A program made the translations under genes and the position numbers. The notes under the pieces were generated by a model that worked only from the letters and a program-made list of their open reading frames with translations, had not been told where the DNA came from and ran no database searches. A stretch of DNA of 63,541 bases, counting the filler, from Reclinomonas americana ATCC 50394 (Eukaryota), in the NCBI GenBank assembly GCA_048213135.1. It is 8 parts of 3 records of this genome, joined end to end, with 100 filler letters (N's around TTAATTAATTAA, not from the genome) between each part and the next. Parts side by side here need not be neighbours in the genome. Positions count along the whole stretch, not along the records: positions 1 to 6,856 come from PS015604.1; positions 6,957 to 12,421 come from PS015604.1; positions 12,522 to 29,907 come from PS015604.1; positions 30,008 to 34,857 come from PS015605.1; positions 34,958 to 40,057 come from PS015605.1; positions 40,158 to 47,772 come from PS015607.1; positions 47,873 to 55,627 come from PS015607.1; positions 55,728 to 63,541 come from PS015607.1. One strand, written 5' to 3'. Below are positions 242 through 63,232 of this stretch, piece by piece. Numbering within the stretch: position 1 is the first letter of the stretch; the number at the start of each line of letters is the position of its first letter.

Positions 242-3200
242 ATCGAACGTGGTGCAAATCGAGCACGTGATTGGCGAGAAGCAGCGCCGTCTCGAGCGCG
301 TGGTGCAGGCCGACGAGGAGGCGAAGCAGTCGCTGCAGGAGCACGTGGAGTTGCAGGGGAACCTCGAAGAGGAAGCGACGCGCGTGGACGAGATTATGGC
401 CAAGACCGAGGCTCGCCTGACGCAAGTGGAGCGCGAGTTGCAGGATCTCAAGGACACGCAGTACAAGCGCTCGACTGCGCTGTTTGCGTTGAGGCGCGAG
501 GAGGTGACTGATCTCTTCCTCTTTGTGTGCGCGCTTGTTTTTCTTGCTCTCTCTCTCTCTATGTCTCTATTTCTCTCATTTCCTCTTTCGCTCATACTGC
601 GCTTTCATCCATGCTCGCCTCTCCCTTTCTCTCCTTCCCTTTCATTCCTTCTCGTATCTTCGTACTGTCCTTGAAGCTGTGCTTGCTCAACTATCTTTTC
701 TGCTGTGCTCATCTCTCTTCCCCCATCTCCTCTCCCTCTCTCTCTTCCCCCTTCCCCCTTCCCCCACACATTTTCCCTTCTTTTGTTTCTCTTCGGTTTT
801 TCTCTCTTTGTATTCACCTGCGCCCAGTTTTGCTCTCGCTCTTCTCTCTTTCTCTTTCCCTCTCGCTCTCTTATTTCCACCTTCCTTTTTGCCTTCCATC
901 TCTCACTTTCTATCCTTTCCCCTTCCGCATCTCTCTGTATCTTCACCTGCGCCTAATTCTGCGCTCACTTTTCTCTTTTTCTCTCTCTCCCTCTCTCCTT
1001 CCCTCTCTCTCCCTCCCTCTCTCTCTTTCTCTCCCTCTCTAACTTTTTCCATTTCCTTCCCTCTCAGTTGAGCAAGAACAGCTTGAGCATGGCAACTATC
1101 AATTCTGCTCTGCTCATCACTCTTCCCTCTCTCCCTTCTCCCTTTCCCCACTCATTTTCCTTCTGTTTCTCTCTCTTTCTGCGCTCGGTCTTCTCTCTTT
1201 CTCTTTCCCTCTTCTCCCCCCTCGCTCTCTCATTTCCACCTTCCTTCCACCTCTCACTTACTTTCCTTCCCCTTTCCCCCTTCCCCCAATACCTTCCTTC
1301 TCCCTTCTCCCTTATCACCCTCCCTTCCCCCTTCCCCCCTTTCCCTTATCCCCCCTTTCCCTTCACTCACCCCCCTTCCCCTCCTCCCTCCACAGGCCAA
1401 CTTGATCGCGGAGATCGCCGGCTGCCGCTCGCAGAACAAGAACATGATGGCCAAGCTGCAGCAGCTGGATGCCGAGTCCTTCAAGCAGCAGGAGCTGCTG
1501 TACAACATTGAGTTCCAGATCCAGCAGCAGGAGCGCCGCGTGAACCGCGCCGAGGGCGACCGCAGCGAGGAGGAAAAGGCGATTTTGAATGAGAAGATCG
1601 AGCAGCTGCAGGTGGCGCTGGAGGAGGTCACCGGGCGCTGCAAGATGCTGAACGGACAAGTCACTCGCGTGCTGAGCGAGGTGCGCAAGGCCAAGGTCGC
1701 CGCCGCGGAGAAGCAGTTTGCCAAGCAAAAGGTGTCGGAGAAGATCATGGAGCTGCGATTGGAGAATGACACGTTGCGTTGTCAAAGAGGGGAAAGCTAG
1801 TTTTTTTCTCCAATCTTGTCGATGCTCATCGTCTCTCCCGCAGTTGCGCGCAAGAGCTGCGAGAGCTGGCCAAGCAGCGCGAGGACATGATGGTCGATCA
1901 CGACGTGCTCAAGCTGCAAGTCAAGCGGCTGCGTGACATTCTCAATGCGCGCAGCGACGAGGTGTTTGGACTGGAGAACCGCAAGGGTCAGCTGGAGATC
2001 ACGCTGCAGGAGCGTGAAACCGAGATCCGCGTGTACAGGTCTCGTAGTTGACTGGATGCCCTCTTCCCCCCTCTTTCACGCCTGCTCACTTTTTTTGCGC
2101 CTCCACAGAGATACACTGTCGTCGGAGCTGCGCATGATGGACGAGGAGCGCAGCAAGTTGGTGCGCGAGCTGAAGGAGCGCGAAGCGCAAGTCGACCGAC
2201 TGCGCAACCGGTACGAGATTCTCATGACACGACTCCGCGTCAACGATCCAGACGGCGACGCAGACGGCGAAGCTCTGCAAGCCAAGTTTATCATCAAGGC
2301 GGCGCAGGAGCGCGAGGCTCTGATGCGCACCGGTGACGAGCTGGATGCGCGCATTCAGAAGCTGCTCAAGGAGGAGAAGTCGATGCGCAAGTCGCTCAAC
2401 TTGCTGCGCGCCAAGAATGTGGGGTGCGTTGTGGTTTTGTGGTGGGGGGAGGGCTGATGTCACCGGTGGATGAACTCATCCGTTTCTTGCAGATTCCAGC
2501 AGAGTTTCCACAAGGCCGACGGCAGCAGTGCCGAGGCGCAGAAGAAGACCGATCTTGATGAGGTGGGTGGTCGTCGTGATCGGAGGTGAATGACTCGTGT
2601 GTATCTCACTCGTAGGTGTGTGGTACACAGAAATTGCACAAGGCGCGTGCGTCGCTGCAAAAGATGCGCACCGAAATGCTGGAAATCGAGGACATTAACG
2701 AGAAACTACGGGTGCGTGATGGTGGTAGTGATGGCGATGCATTGTTGTGATGTTAACTTTCATGTGTGATGCAGAACGACTTGGAGGCCATTGAAGCGCA
2801 AGAAAAGGGCGACGTCGCGCACGAGATTGCCGAGTCGCAAGAGCAGAAGCAAGCACTGCAGTCGGAGACCAAGACGCACGCGGAGCGTCTGGGCACATAC
2901 ATGCGCAAGAAGCAACGGTGAGAAAGAGAGAGAGAGAGAGAGCCTGCGCACCCTCCCCCTTTTCGCCCATCATTTACTCACACTACATGCTAACGCCACA
3001 GAGCTCTGCGATCACTGAAAGAGAAGCACGGTGTACCCGACGAGGAACTGCATCCGATTGAGAAGGACCTCATGATTGCCGAGATGCGCGACCGAAATCG
3101 CGAGGCTCTGAACCTGCTGCTGCAACTGGGCAAGATCAATCCGGCGCTGCGCGATCCCTTGGAGGAGATGACGCAGCGATTCGGTCTGCAACGCACTCGG

Positions 3201-3368
3201 TCGAGCTCTGGTCGTGACAGCGCACGCAGTGATCGCTCGCTGGGCTCGCGACCGGGCTCAGCACGCAGTGTGTCGAGTGCACACTCGGCGGTCAGTGGTG
3301 CAAGTGCAGGCAGTCAGCACAGTTCGGCTCGCCAGGTCATTCCCAGGACAATATCGCTGGGGTTGTAG
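242..3368 (+). CDS. CCDC39: Coiled-coil domain-containing protein 39 (axonemal 96-nm ruler), 5'-partial, 8 visible exons
   Basis: Spliced frame gives ...LIAEIAGCRSQNKNMMAKLQQLDAESFKQQELLYNIEFQIQQQERRVNRAEG...DHDVLKLQVKRLRDILNARSDEVFGLENRK...FIIKAAQEREALMRTGDELDARIQK, matching CCDC39/FAP59 as I recall it; GT-AG introns; TAG at 3366-3368. Confidence 0.9.
675..1083. mobile_element. Possible MITE-like insertion inside a CCDC39 intron
   Basis: 18-bp inverted repeat (agctgtgcttgctcaact / agttgagcaagaacagct, 1 mismatch) flanked by TGA on both sides; no coding capacity; interior pyrimidine-rich. Confidence 0.35.
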
Positions 3369-3407
3369 TAATGTACAAACATGTGCAATGTGGTGTGACA
3401 AAACCAT

Positions 3408-61301: not shown

Positions 61302-61454
61302 ATGGCCGACACCAACGAGTTCTCACGGGGTGGCGCTGACGCCACTGCCTCCGACTCCATCTGGGACACCGTCGCCGAGGTCGGCGCTGATGTGGCTGTC
61401 GACGGTGGCCTCGAGCTGCTGTGCTGCCGTCAGGACGACGCACCGCCGCAGTAA
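61302..61454 (+). CDS. Small peptide B (50 aa), tandem paralogue pair
   Basis: MADTNEFSRGGADATASDSIWDTVAEVGADVAVDGGLELLCCRQDDAPPQ*. Confidence 0.85.
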   Translation: MADTNEFSRGGADATASDSIWDTVAEVGADVAVDGGLELLCCRQDDAPPQ

Positions 61455-61555
61455 GAGAGAGAGAGAGAGCAGAGCAGCGAATGAATGAATGAATGACAAT
61501 CGTTGTTTACGCCCCCGTCTTTGTGTCCCCCACGTTGTGTTATTGATCTCAAATC

Positions 61556-63232
61556 ATGGCGCACGAGGTGAGTGGTCGCTCACTCACGCACTCTCGCACT
61601 CACTCGCCTCACTCCACTGCCGCCACCGCAAAGGGCGTGGACGACTATCGCGCAGAGTTGCGCTGATCTCTCACACTTGGCGCTGATCTGCCACTCACGA
61701 AACCTAATCGCAGAGATCTTGTGCGCATGTTTCCCTCGGAGGAGAGGGCCAACCTTGGCGTGGGTACCTATGCCGAAGTGGGCTTGTTCATGCACGTGCC
61801 GAGGGAGAATCCGGTCGCTGTGAAGGTATGACAGCCTATGTGCACCACGCTGCTGCCTTTTTCTTCCCATGTGCGCTGTTGTTGTCCGCAGACCGAGCCT
61901 CACGACGCACACATCACGGAGCGCACTCTCCAATCGCAGCCAATCATGGTTCGCAGACTGCAGCTGCTCACAGTGTCTCGCTTTGTTTTGTGCTGACGAC
62001 TTGTCGGCAGGAGAACATTGAGAGCGTGATTCAGTGCTTCGGCTACTTCATCGACAGTGGGTGTGTGTTGTGCCTCTCGCTGCAGCATTCTTCCTACATG
62101 TCGCCAGTCGTGCTCACTTCCGCCTGCAGATTTGTGCACTACATTCTCGAGTACATGGATGGTTTGTTGTGCTTCTCGTGACTCCTTGTTTCACGCGTAC
62201 GCGTTCACCTGCGACAACGACGACGACTGCAGGTCTGTCGCTTGAGTACCACCTCGAAAACTTGCCGGGGGGTTTCGCTGGACTGCCGCTCGACGTCGTC
62301 AAGGCCATCGTGTGGCAGGTGTGCTCCTTTCCATCGCCAAGCTTTCTCTCTCATCATCACTTCTCTTTCGCTTGTACTGCTTTCTATCAGTGTCCCCCCC
62401 CCCCCTCCCTCTCTCTCTTCGCTTTCTGCCCTGCCCTTCCTGCCTCGTGCCTGTAACAACCGCTGTTCTCTTGCGCTTCACTCAACCCTTCTCTCTCCAC
62501 TATCGCTCACCCTTCTGCTTTCGCTGCAGGTCACGCGCGGTCTGCGCAGCATTCACGCTCGCAGAGTGGTGCACCGTGACATTCGCCCGGCCAACATCCT
62601 CCTCGACACGCAGGGGCAAGTGAAAGTCACCGACTTTAACACTTCGCGCCCACTGCGAGAGGGTTCATGGGGCTCAACATGTCTGGGGCAGTACTGCTAC
62701 ATGCCGGTTGCGTGCACAAGTACACTCGCACTCTCACGCTGTGCGCTATAGTTTCACCCGCATCGCGAACCCAATTGCAGCCAGAGGTTTTGAAATATCC
62801 ACACAGGCACGGACTGAATGCCGATGTGTGGAGTCTTGGCATGACCACGTACTTTCTGGCGTGTGGAGTGAATCCGTTCGTGGCGCCATGTGTAACGCAA
62901 CTTGTGCGTCGCCTTTGCTAACTGCGCCTCCACGCACGTGCAGGATCCCCCGCAACGCCGCGGGAGCCGAGATGGCACACGAGGATGGCGTTCCAGTTCT
63001 CGACCCATTGCTGTATGATCCAGATCTCTGCGACTTTGTGCGCGTGTGCCTCATCGCGGATCCCGCACTCCGGCCAGAATCGTGTGCGTTGCTGGAGCAC
63101 CCAGTCTTTCACGGCATGGGCCAAGATAGAGCGATGGGCATCGTCAGTGACTGGCTGGTCAACCTGGTGGGATACCAACCGCGGCAGCTGCCATCTGTGG
63201 CCGAGCTGCTCAGTGCACTCCATGGTACATAA
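61556..63232 (+). CDS. Divergent STE7/MAPKK-like protein kinase, 9 exons
   Basis: LGVGTYAEV..VAVK..LEYMDGLSL..HRDIRPANILLDTQGQVKVTDFN..YMPPE..ADVWSLG..CDFVRVCLIADPALRP..LLEHP. Confidence 0.88.

What the first reader, a model, noticed from the sequence alone, without database searches (positions are those of the whole stretch)
1770..62706. Shifted donors mostly lack the exonic -1 G that normal-register donors have
Seen: only about 6 of the ~35 shifted donors are preceded by G (14984, 19083, 39853, 42014, 46075, 62707); the rest follow A, T or C. Most ordinary donors I read are G|GT, including weak ones such as G|GTCTCG, G|GTCTGG and G|GTCCGT. Inference: in the shifted register the intron +1 G takes the pairing role of the exonic -1 G, freeing the coding sequence from splice constraint. 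This gives a selective rationale for the class.
Basis: partly seen in the sequence, partly recalled or inferred. Interest (0 to 1): 0.7.

Follow-up and report, generated by a model that had tools for sequence, protein, structure and literature searches.

The report
Shifted GTTGCGT splice donors lack exonic G
In this intron-rich protist-like genome about one intron in five starts with GTTGCGT instead of GTGCGT, and these introns really do lack the G that normally ends the preceding exon, as expected if the splicing RNA U1 binds them one base out of step.

Summary
GTTGCGT occurs 40 times on both strands, against 15.7±3.7 in dinucleotide shuffles.

In my ab initio gene models the donor score used intron bases only. 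The exonic -1 base is G in 6 of 34 shifted donors and in 65 of 116 ordinary donors (p=7e-5). For introns of 100 nt or less the counts are 2/23 and 52/73 (p=9e-8). With the core matched, GTTGCGT gives 2/18 and GTGCGT 15/20. Among junctions checked against homologues, Pfam or PDB chains, the counts are 1/8 and 9/10.

The first half of the interpretation fits best: the intronic +1 G sits where the exonic -1 G normally pairs with U1. A bulged-U register would keep -1 G, and it does not. This rests on inference, because no U1 gene, genome or RNA data were available.

The "frees the coding sequence" rationale is not supported. Intron phases are the same in both classes. The -1 base of shifted donors is also not neutral: A+T is 23/34 against 14.5 expected.

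This looks like the human shifted-register 5' splice site, used here as a major class (about 20% of modelled introns).

The parts
1773..1779 (+). Shifted donor AC|GTTGCGT (-1 C), CCDC39-like gene, 71-nt intron
   Evidence: The flanking exons hit Pfam CCDC39 at profile 428-551 and then 561-617 starting from exon residue 9, so they are colinear. Frame read directly from the sequence.
7355..7361 (+). Shifted donor TC|GTTGCGT (-1 C), 84-nt intron
   Evidence: Ab initio model only.
14984..14990 (+). Shifted donor GG|GTTGCGT (-1 G), last intron of a RIC1-like gene
   Evidence: Three-frame reading: the donor plus an acceptor at 15040 or 15052 continues the frame to TAA at 15131. The finder chooses it at the lower gene penalties (3 of the 4 settings).
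19729..19735 (+). Shifted donor GA|GTTGAGT (-1 A), P2X receptor gene, 66-nt intron
   Evidence: Gapless alignment to homologue P0002 across the junction, SLRR|PYLPPGCGD. My finder missed it; added by hand.
20526..20532 (+). Shifted donor GT|GTTGCGT (-1 T), P2X gene, 66-nt intron (in frame, no stop)
   Evidence: Homologue P0002 lacks the 22 residues that the intron would encode. Approximate check in a variable loop.
20680..20686 (+). Shifted donor AA|GTTGCGT (-1 A), P2X gene, 81-nt intron
   Evidence: Gapless alignment across the junction, TGGK|VRYEY against TGDW-IEYEY of P0002.
21347..21353 (+). Possible shifted donor AC|GTTGCGT (-1 C), P2X C-terminal tail; doubtful
   Evidence: The model gives it a 13-nt downstream exon. 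The frame also reads through, and the tail is not conserved.
28834..28840 (+). Shifted donor TT|GTTGAGT (-1 T), weak support
   Evidence: Ab initio model only; the upstream exon has a coding score near 0.
38094..38100 (+). Shifted donor GT|GTTGCGT (-1 T), 66-nt intron
   Evidence: Ab initio model; both flanking exons score as coding.
38668..38674 (+). Shifted-like donor GA|GTTGGGT (-1 A), 69-nt intron
   Evidence: Ab initio model.
39853..39859 (+). Shifted donor TG|GTTGCGT (-1 G); intron end uncertain
   Evidence: The modelled 396-nt intron spans masked N runs at 40058-40157.
40377..40383 (+). Shifted donor GA|GTTGCGT (-1 A), 65-nt intron
   Evidence: Ab initio model; the downstream exon is weak.
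42014..42020 (+). Shifted donor TG|GTTGCGT (-1 G), fidgetin-like AAA ATPase gene, 73-nt intron to 42086
   Evidence: Against PDB chain 3d8b_A, the exon before ends at chain residue 86, the split codon G|CG is residue 87, and the next exon covers 88-126.
45892..45898 (+). Shifted donor CA|GTTGAGT (-1 A), 62-nt intron
   Evidence: Ab initio model with strong coding on both sides, scores 42 and 18.
46075..46081 (+). Shifted donor CG|GTTGCGT (-1 G), 60-nt intron
   Evidence: Ab initio model.
46235..46241 (+). Shifted donor CT|GTTGCGT (-1 T), 58-nt intron
   Evidence: Ab initio model.
62707..62713 (+).
   Evidence: No coding-compatible acceptor or frame was found, and it is absent from the models.
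4068..4074 (-). Shifted donor GA|GTTGCGA (-1 A), 247-nt intron
   Evidence: Ab initio model.
5316..5322 (-). Shifted donor AA|GTTGCGT (-1 A); long modelled intron, uncertain acceptor
   Evidence: Ab initio model.
18353..18359 (-). Shifted donor CA|GTTGCGC (-1 A), 56-nt intron
   Evidence: Ab initio model; both exons score as coding.
19077..19083 (-). Shifted donor TG|GTTGCGT (-1 G) directly after an ATG; uncertain
   Evidence: The model gives it a 3-nt first exon.
23161..23167 (-). Shifted donor CA|GTTGCGT (-1 A)
   Evidence: Ab initio model.
23347..23353 (-). Shifted donor CT|GTTGCGT (-1 T), 75-nt intron
   Evidence: Ab initio model; coding scores 35 and 20.
24301..24307 (-). Shifted donor CT|GTTGCGT (-1 T), 297-nt intron
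   Evidence: Ab initio model.
33506..33512 (-). Shifted donor AT|GTTGCGT (-1 T), upstream part of the Nop14-like gene
   Evidence: Ab initio model.
35180..35186 (-). Shifted donor CA|GTTGCGT (-1 A), 69-nt intron
   Evidence: Ab initio model. The intron's 3' 41 nt are duplicated in the neighbouring intron.
35561..35567 (-). Shifted donor GT|GTTGCGT (-1 T), 74-nt intron
   Evidence: Ab initio model.
37079..37085 (-). Shifted donor CT|GTTGCGT (-1 T), 83-nt intron
   Evidence: Ab initio model.
40937..40943 (-). GG|GTTGCGG (-1 G); probably spurious
   Evidence: It lies in a low-scoring minus-strand model that overlaps the + strand models 37401-40761 and 40894-43295.
44201..44207 (-). Shifted donor CT|GTTGCGT (-1 T), cyclophilin gene, 61-nt intron
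   Evidence: Gapless across the junction against P0016 and P0014, HRVIPKA|LIQGGD.
44505..44511 (-). Shifted donor GT|GTTGCGT (-1 T), first intron of the cyclophilin gene
   Evidence: The model exon MSAQGNPH, a split Val and then FLEIG match ENPRVFLEF of P0016. The exon is short, so the check is by reading.
50244..50250 (-). Shifted donor AC|GTTGCGT (-1 C), 57-nt intron
   Evidence: Ab initio model; coding scores 50 and 23.
51692..51698 (-). Shifted donor GT|GTTGCGT (-1 T), 58-nt intron
   Evidence: Ab initio model.
53951..53957 (-). Shifted donor TC|GTTGCGT (-1 C); long modelled intron, uncertain
   Evidence: Ab initio model.
54990..54996 (-). Shifted donor GA|GTTGCGT (-1 A), nucleotide cyclase gene, 74-nt intron
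   Evidence: The two flanking exons map to contiguous residues in four PDB cyclase chains, for example 7yz9_A 126-150 (+11 to the exon end = 161) and 166-193 (-4 to the exon start = 162). E-values are weak, 0.46-0.7.

Best explanation
The window comes from an intron-rich eukaryote whose ordinary 5' splice site is G|GTGCGT or G|GTGAGT. A second class makes up about a fifth of modelled introns and reads N|GTTGCGT.

The most likely mechanism is as follows. U1 snRNA, or a U1-like recogniser, pairs with these sites one nucleotide out of register. The obligatory intronic G+1 then occupies the slot opposite U1 C9, which the exonic G-1 fills in ordinary donors. U+3 takes the slot of U+2 opposite A7, and the GCGU core follows as usual. 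U+2 is left unpaired opposite C8.

Cleavage still occurs 5' of the GU, because the cut is fixed later by U6, U5 and Prp8 and not by U1. The exonic -1 base therefore no longer needs to be G.

What is shown here: the motif, its excess over chance, its use as a donor at exact positions, and the loss of -1 G. What is inferred: the pairing scheme itself.
For: 1. GTTGCGT is 2.5 times commoner than in dinucleotide shuffles, and only T is enriched at +3. This is the base that can pair with U1 A7.
2. At eight junctions the donor position fits independent proteins or profiles. At least four are exact or gapless: 19729, 20680, 42014 and 44207. The frame requires cleavage before the G, not after it.
3. 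-1 G is 6/34 against 65/116, and 2/23 against 52/73 for short introns. With an identical core it is 2/18 against 15/20. Intron-side strength therefore does not explain the difference.
4. GTT donors without a good shifted core, such as G|GTTCGT and G|GTTGGT, keep -1 G at 8/19.
5. A is over-represented at -1 of shifted donors (11 against 6.1 expected, P=0.027). A pairing with U1 U10 in the shifted register would produce this.
6. Among introns of 100 nt or less, the shifted and ordinary classes are otherwise alike: median length 66 against 66 nt, acceptor CAG in 21/23 against 69/73, and the same pyrimidine content. This points to the same spliceosome.
7. A shifted U1 register with cleavage kept at the GU has experimental support in human cells (Roca and Krainer 2009, as described in passages of PMC4856993).
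Against: - No U1 sequence, genome or RNA-seq for this organism was available.
- With the canonical U1 5' end, ViennaRNA duplex energies make shifted donors weak: mean -2.0 kcal/mol against -5.4 for ordinary donors. +1 G is placed opposite C9 in only 4 of 33 and opposite C8 in 6.
- The same energies predict that -1 G would stabilise binding of GTTGCGT sites, yet G is depleted.
- T is as common as A at -1 (12 and 11 of 34), which pairing with U10 does not predict. C at -2, the expected partner of G11, is not clearly enriched.
- The shifted class uses almost only the GCG core (C 30, A 3, G 1). Ordinary donors use GTGCG 31 and GTGAG 29. If pairing to a canonical U1 were limiting, A would be the better base.
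- Most introns rest on my own ab initio models, which contain errors.
Confidence: 0.5

Rival explanations
1. Bulged-U register. U1 pairs in the normal register (G+1 with C8, U+2 with A7), one of the two U residues bulges out, and the GCGU core then pairs as usual. This is the 'bulge +2/+3' register described for human sites.
For: - The motif, GT plus an extra T plus the normal core, is what this register needs.
- The register is listed for 68 human 5' splice sites (54 after curation) in PMC4856993 (passages).
- Nearest-neighbour energies with canonical U1 give +1 G opposite C8 slightly more often than opposite C9 (6 against 4 of 33).
Against: - In this register the exonic -1 base still faces C9. 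G should be kept, or even enriched to offset the bulge.
- Instead it drops to 2/18 against 15/20 with the same core, and falls below the coding background (2 against 7.1 expected in short introns, P=0.010).
Confidence: 0.12
2. A dedicated second recogniser. The genome encodes a variant U1 snRNA, for example with A instead of C at position 8, or another factor, that reads GUUGCGU as a continuous helix. The organism would then run two donor dialects side by side.
For: - It would explain why a class that binds canonical U1 poorly makes up about 20% of modelled introns.
- It would explain why the class is almost restricted to one exact heptamer: 27 of 34 are GTTGCGT, and the core base is C in 30, A in 3 and G in 1.
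- A hypothetical A8 U1 gives mean duplex energies of -4.4 kcal/mol for shifted donors and -2.7 for ordinary ones, the mirror image of canonical U1 at -2.0 and -5.4. This illustrates the idea and is not evidence for it.
- Expressed U1 variants exist in humans (PMC3561869 and PMC8457000, abstract starts only).
Against: - No snRNA gene lies in the window (Rfam gave 0 matches), and no genome is held, so there is no direct evidence at all.
- The U1 5' end is among the most conserved RNA sequences known (background knowledge).
Confidence: 0.15
3. Historical origin instead of function. Shifted donors were created by a particular intron-gain or mutation process, such as insertion at A/T-ending sites or T duplication in donors that already lacked -1 G. 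The -1 composition would then be inherited and not selected.
For: The -1 base is biased to A/T and not merely neutral (23/34 against 14.5 expected). A target-site preference could produce such a bias.
Against: - Introns share no sequence family. All-against-all blastn of 168 modelled introns gave 7 hit rows, all low-complexity or one local duplication.
- Length and 3' signals are the same as in ordinary introns.
- T duplication in ordinary donors, which mostly have -1 G, would give G-rich -1, not G-poor.
Confidence: 0.1
4. Annotation artefact. The GTTGCGT sites are not donors, or the cut lies after the G (G|TTGCGT). In that case -1 G would be universal and the contrast illusory.
For: No RNA evidence exists, and about 16 of the 40 heptamers are expected by chance. 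My finder uses 27 of the 40.
Against: - At 20680, 44207, 42014 and 19729 the reading frame and gapless alignment to homologues or PDB chains require the cut before the GT together with the CAG acceptor. A cut after the G with the same acceptor would shift the frame.
- GT-AG is kept in all 34 modelled cases.
- False positives would push both classes towards the same neutral composition, which would shrink the contrast and could not create it.
Confidence: 0.03

Closest known systems
Shifted (+1) U1 register 5' splice sites of human genes (Roca and Krainer 2009, Nat Struct Mol Biol). I saw only how PMC4856993 describes them (passages). The original, PMC2719486, is not held.
   Same: - The GU is kept at the cut, with an extra nucleotide before the consensus core.
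- All U1 pairs are displaced by one position, so G+1 lies opposite C9.
- The model oligo 'Shifted +1' ACA/GUCAAGUAU has no -1 G.
   Different: - In humans these sites are rare exceptions. Validated noncanonical registers taken together cover 1.5% of 201,541 human 5' splice sites (PMC4856993).
- Here one exact heptamer serves about 20% of modelled introns (34/169).
- The core is GCGU and not AAGU.
- The expected CA at -2/-1 is not clear. A is enriched at -1, but T is equally common.
Bulge +2/+3 register 5' splice sites (Roca et al. 2012, Genes Dev). I saw only the description in PMC4856993, Figure 1C legend and Table 3. The original, PMC3360564, is not held.
   Same: The same GUU-plus-core motif.
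   Different: That register keeps -1 G paired to C9. Here -1 G is depleted (2/18 against 15/20).
Strict GTGCG(T/C) donors of Ostreococcus and other Mamiellophyceae (Irimia and Roy 2008, PMC2483917, search listing only; earlier scan notes e1-560454 and e1-562521).
   Same: The ordinary donor core GTGCGT, a GC-rich genome and short introns.
   Different: - Those notes and that listing mention no GTTGCGT class.
- This window is far more intron-rich. The finder models about 169 introns in 63.5 kb, and donor cores also include GTGAG and GTGTG.
Variant U1 snRNAs of human cells (PMC3561869 and PMC8457000, abstract starts only).
   Same: A precedent for more than one U1 sequence being expressed in one organism.
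   Different: Nothing here shows that this organism has a variant U1. Human variants are not tied to a major donor class.

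Membership tests
Shifted (+1) register U1-type 5' splice sites | A canonical GU at the cleavage site, with the cut before it even though U1 is displaced | tested here: met
   All 34 modelled shifted donors are GT-AG. At least four junctions (19729, 20680, 42014, 44207) are gapless or exact against homologues or PDB chains only with the cut before the GT.
Shifted (+1) register U1-type 5' splice sites | More or better base pairs with the U1 5' end in the shifted register than in the canonical one | tested here: inconclusive
   With the canonical AUACUUACCUG (sequence from PMC4856993), ViennaRNA duplexfold puts +1 G opposite C9 in 4 of 33 shifted donors, opposite C8 in 6, and elsewhere or unpaired in 23. 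The model consensus adopts the shifted register only with CA at -2/-1. The organism's own U1 is unknown.
Shifted (+1) register U1-type 5' splice sites | The exon-side consensus moves by one position: no -1 G requirement, and -1 takes the role of -2 | tested here: met
   -1 G is 6/34 against 65/116, and 2/18 against 15/20 with a matched core. A is enriched at -1 (11 against 6.1 expected, P=0.027). The T enrichment is not predicted by this feature.
Shifted (+1) register U1-type 5' splice sites | Rescue by suppressor U1 mutations in the shifted register only | not testable with these tools
   This needs experiments in the organism or in a heterologous splicing system.
Bulge +2/+3 register 5' splice sites | The canonical register is kept on the exon side, so -1 G pairs with C9 and stays favoured | tested here: not met
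   -1 G is depleted relative to ordinary donors, and relative to the coding background in short introns (2 against 7.1 expected, P=0.010).
U12-type (minor spliceosome) introns | A donor of the type /RTATCCTT (motif recalled from background knowledge) and a distinct branch site | tested here: not met
   The donors read GTTGCGT. Their 3' ends do not differ from those of ordinary introns.
Introner-like mobile introns | Many introns share sequence along their length | tested here: not met
   All-against-all blastn of the modelled introns gave 7 hit rows: low-complexity matches plus one local duplication between 35186 and 34997.

The most novel reading that the evidence does not exclude
This organism may run two 5' splice-site dialects genome-wide. 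About four fifths of its introns would be read by U1 in the normal register and about one fifth (GUUGCGU) in a one-base-shifted register. The shifted class may be served by a dedicated U1 variant, for example A in place of C at position 8, that pairs continuously with G-U-U-G-C-G-U. If so, U1 register and cleavage position would be naturally uncoupled on a genomic scale, and a second major-spliceosome U1 specificity would have evolved.
Probability: 0.15. Interest if true: 0.8.

Novelty: new variant of a known kind. Interest (0 to 1): 0.55.

Why it matters
In humans, shifted-register recognition of 5' splice sites is a rare curiosity that had to be proven site by site with suppressor U1s. Here the same geometry seems to serve a large, uniform class of introns in one genome. 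Its predicted signature, loss of the exonic -1 G, is visible statistically.

If this holds genome-wide it has three uses:
- It gives a natural system for asking how U1 register and the later U6/U5-defined cut are uncoupled.
- It allows a test of whether snRNA variants co-evolve with donor classes.
- It would improve gene prediction for this lineage, since standard donor models would miss or mis-place about a fifth of introns.

I found no description of such a class in six literature searches. The library is incomplete and the organism is unidentified, so prior publication cannot be excluded.

Tried and rejected
- Whole genome: none is held for this window.
- RNA evidence: no RNA holder was listed for window 35100-45099, so read laying could not be used.
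- Rfam on the window: 0 matches at gathering score, so no snRNA gene here.
- Earlier scan notes: nothing for this genome or for look-alike stretches. A word search returned only unrelated notes plus two on Ostreococcus GTGCG donors.
- The search for homologous proteins in 'longer' mode: nothing for a Nop14 exon or for exon 45168-45485. The organism's own proteome therefore seems absent from that collection, and annotated gene models could not be recovered.
- Representative search with a P2X exon: only 10 weak hits, one of which (P0002) was usable.
- Metagenome scan with a CCDC39 exon: no relative.
- Metagenome scan with a P2X exon: two distant loci, L001 and L002, at 60% and 52% identity over about 42 residues. 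L001 has 13 GTGCGT and no GTTGCGT on the gene strand in 3.2 kb. Both are too distant and too short to compare orthologous introns.
- Protein Atlas on the GT17 exon: no taxonomic lead.
- A local 'best intron' scorer with greedy choice picked long exon-skipping introns, and its null overlapped the signal. I abandoned it in favour of the exon-chaining finder.
- Motif searches of the literature (GTTGCGT, GUUGCGU, GTTGCG plus splice terms, GTGCGT plus splice terms) returned primers and unrelated hits.
- Explanations rejected: a cut after the G (UU-AG introns), because of frames at checked junctions; compensation by a strong intron core, because of the matched-core test; introner family, because; U12-type introns.

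Full report
WHAT THE WINDOW IS. The 63.5-kb window is GC-rich (about 56%) eukaryotic DNA, densely packed with genes that carry many short introns. Pfam hits on single exons identify the following:
- a CCDC39-like ciliary protein (1-3370, + strand)
- a P2X receptor (about 19100-21600, +)
- a family-17 glycosyltransferase
- an ankyrin protein
- Nop14 (30082-33121, -)
- a fidgetin-like AAA ATPase (about 40900-43300, +)
- a cyclophilin (43781-44537, -)
- an actin-related protein
- a nucleotide cyclase

No whole genome is held. No RNA run was listed. Rfam finds no RNA gene in the window. Several stretches are masked as N.

THE TWO DONOR CLASSES. The usual donor is G|GTGCGT or G|GTGAGT, visible for example at 2424, 2712 and 2918. 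A second form, N|GTTGCGT, appears first at 1773. There the frame runs ...GAC AC|GTTGCGT...CAG|T TGC..., and the two exons hit the CCDC39 profile colinearly.

GTTGCGT occurs 40 times on both strands. Dinucleotide-preserving shuffles give 15.7±3.7, and 0 of 100 reach 40. The other three bases between GT and GCGT are at or below expectation: GTAGCGT 1, GTCGCGT 18, GTGGCGT 15. So the extra base is specifically T.

CHECK OF THE OBSERVATION WITHOUT GENE MODELS. The base before the 40 heptamers is A 11, C 7, G 6, T 16.

GENE MODELS. No annotation or RNA data could be obtained, so I wrote an exon-chaining gene finder.
- It uses a self-trained codon model and an acceptor matrix.
- Its donor matrix scores intron positions only, read in either register. 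The exonic -1 base therefore cannot influence which donor is chosen.
- I made two manual corrections from homology. The result is 169 introns: 34 shifted (GTTGNG), 116 ordinary and 19 other GTT donors.

Results on these models:
- -1 G is 6/34 in shifted donors and 65/116 in ordinary donors (p=7.4e-5).
- For introns of 100 nt or less, the most reliable set, it is 2/23 against 52/73 (p=9.3e-8).
- With the same core and short introns, GTTGCGT gives 2/18 and GTGCGT 15/20 (p=9.1e-5).
- Four settings of the gene and length penalties gave p between 1.1e-5 and 1.3e-4.

The finder is imperfect. It merged neighbouring genes around 14984 (corrected by reading the frames). It also missed or mis-joined exons in the P2X, cyclophilin and AAA genes. 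Errors of this kind add near-neutral sites to both classes and so weaken the contrast.

INDEPENDENT CHECKS OF JUNCTIONS.
- P2X gene. Homologue P0002 aligns gaplessly across the shifted donors 19729 (GTTGAGT, SLRR|PYLPPGCGD) and 20680 (TGGK|VRYEY). It lacks the 22 residues that intron 20526 would encode. It aligns gaplessly across the ordinary donors 20178, 20316 and 20963, and within one residue at 19921. The shifted-looking site 21347 in the unconserved tail could not be checked.
- Cyclophilin gene. P0014 and P0016 align gaplessly across the shifted donor 44207 (HRVIPKA|LIQGGD). They fit the shifted donor 44511 and the weak ordinary donor AAAG|GTCAGT at 44311.
- Fidgetin-like gene. PDB chain 3d8b_A matches the exon before donor 42014 up to residue 86. 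The next exon covers 88-126 and the following one 127-166. This fixes both the shifted donor 42014 (the split codon is residue 87) and the ordinary donor 42208.
- Cyclase gene. The exons on either side of donor 54996 map to contiguous residues in four PDB chains, although with weak E-values.
- Pfam colinearity supports 1773, 42385, 48112, 48362, 31406 and the GTT donor 32559.

In total, checked shifted donors have -1 G in 1 of 8 (42014 only). Checked ordinary donors have it in 9 of 10 (48112 is T). A hypergeometric test worked by hand gives a one-sided p of about 0.002. At these junctions a cut after the G, with the same acceptor, would break the frame. The sites are therefore true GT-AG introns cut before the GT.

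WHAT THE PATTERN MEANS. Aligned on the GCGT core, ordinary donors read G|G-T-GCGT and shifted donors |G-T-T-GCGT. The G that ordinary donors keep at exon position -1 is supplied, in the shifted class, by the intron's own first base.

This is the geometry of the 'shifted register' of U1 pairing shown for rare human sites, in which all pairs move by one position and the cut stays at the GU. I read passages of PMC4856993. The original papers are not held. The alternative known geometry for a GUU donor is a bulged U at +2/+3 (same source). It keeps -1 opposite U1 C9 and so predicts that -1 G is retained. The data speak against that.

Compensation by a strong intron side is excluded by the matched-core test. 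It is also hard to square with the other GTT donors, whose shifted reading is poor and which keep -1 G at 8/19.

In every other measured respect shifted and ordinary introns are alike: median length is 66 nt in both, the acceptor is CAG in 21/23 and 69/73, and pyrimidine content is 0.59 and 0.60. They do not form a repeat family. A separate spliceosome or a mobile intron family is therefore unlikely.

WHAT DOES NOT FIT. First, I took the canonical U1 5' end (AUACUUACCUG, from PMC4856993) and computed ViennaRNA duplex energies.
- Shifted donors come out weak: mean -2.0 kcal/mol against -5.4 for ordinary donors.
- +1 G is placed opposite C9 in only 4 of 33 shifted donors. The consensus adopts the shifted register only with CA at -2/-1.
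- On these energies, a -1 G would strengthen binding. Yet G is depleted.

Second, I compared the -1 base of shifted donors with the base that precedes exonic GT at the same codon position.
- A+T is 23/34 against 14.5 expected (P=0.0016).
- A is 11 against 6.1 expected (P=0.027).
- G is 6 against 10.4 expected (P=0.059). Among short introns it is 2 against 7.1 (P=0.010).
- A at -1 could pair with U1 U10 in the shifted register. T (12/34) is not explained.

Third, the shifted class is almost confined to one core. GTTGxG has C 30, A 3 and G 1, whereas ordinary GTGxG has C 31, A 29, T 19 and G 3.

These three points keep a further possibility open: the class may have its own recogniser, for example a U1 variant with A at position 8. 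A hypothetical sequence of that kind reverses the energy ranking (shifted -4.4, ordinary -2.7 kcal/mol). This is only an illustration, and nothing in the window tests it.

THE SELECTIVE RATIONALE. If that drove the class, shifted donors should be concentrated in phases where a G would change the amino acid. The phase distributions are the same (15/10/9 against 50/35/31). The non-neutral A/T bias at -1 shows that the position is not simply released. I therefore regard this part as unsupported, though it is not excluded as a side effect.

COMPARISON WITH WHAT IS KNOWN, AND NOVELTY. The closest known system is the human shifted-register 5' splice site. It differs in scale. Validated noncanonical registers together cover 1.5% of human sites (PMC4856993), against about 20% of modelled introns here. 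It also differs in the uniform heptamer and in the GCGU core.

Six literature searches found no report of a genome in which such donors are a major class. The 42 papers that hold the phrase 'shifted base-pairing' deal mostly with human or yeast splicing (40 listed). The library is partial and I could not identify the organism, so earlier publication cannot be ruled out.

Two distant metagenomic P2X loci were found. One has 13 GTGCGT and no GTTGCGT on the gene strand. They are too distant to compare orthologous introns.

VERDICT. The register-shift reading is the best available explanation (confidence about 0.5). A dedicated variant recogniser is an attractive unproven extension. The coding-freedom rationale is not supported. 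I class this as a new variant of a known kind, of moderate to good interest, and it needs RNA data and the organism's U1 genes to settle.

Noticed in passing
window, all modelled donors: Shifted donors use almost only the GCG core (GTTGxG: C 30, A 3, G 1). Ordinary donors split evenly between GTGCG (31) and GTGAG (29), with GTGTG at 19. Pairing to a canonical U1 does not explain this.
   Followed up: partly
window 20526-20591 (+): The shifted-donor intron in the P2X gene is 66 nt long, a multiple of three, and has no in-frame stop. Retaining it would insert 22 hydrophobic residues without truncating the protein.
   Followed up: no
window 34586-35186 (-): The introns that start at 35186 and 34997 share an identical 41-nt 3' end, and the exons that follow both begin cccccag|GAC. 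This looks like a local tandem duplication of an exon-intron unit, next to masked N runs at 34858-34957.
   Followed up: no
window 6857-6956, 12422-12521, 29908-30007, 34858-34957, 40058-40157, 47773-47872, 55628-55727: There are seven copies of the same masking pattern: 44 N, 12 bases, 44 N. There are also four longer N runs (7757-8330, 12942-13930, 37852-37957, 57805-58434). They interrupt several gene models.
   Followed up: no
window 41872-42384 (+): The AAA ATPase gene is a close relative of fidgetin-like protein 1. The exon at 42089-42207 aligns over its full length to PDB 3d8b_A residues 88-126 at E=8e-16. My finder had mis-modelled the exon 42087-42207.
   Followed up: yes
L001 1-3195 (metagenome contig, P2X relative): GC is 57%, with GT-rich microsatellites and 13 GTGCGT on the gene strand but no GTTGCGT. 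Donors such as ACAC|GTGCGTGCG lack -1 G. It may be a distant relative that has the ordinary donor dialect only.
   Followed up: partly
window 1-1390 and many introns: Long CT-rich and GT-rich microsatellite tracts fill the larger introns, for example the ~870-890-nt CCDC39 intron that ends at 1394-1395.
   Followed up: no
window 19795, 29703, 41871, 44448 and others: Many acceptors read ...TGACAG| or ...CGACAG|. A branch-site-like CTGAC therefore sits only a few bases from the 3' splice site. A YTRAY motif is present in only 8/23 shifted and 29/73 ordinary short introns.
   Followed up: partly
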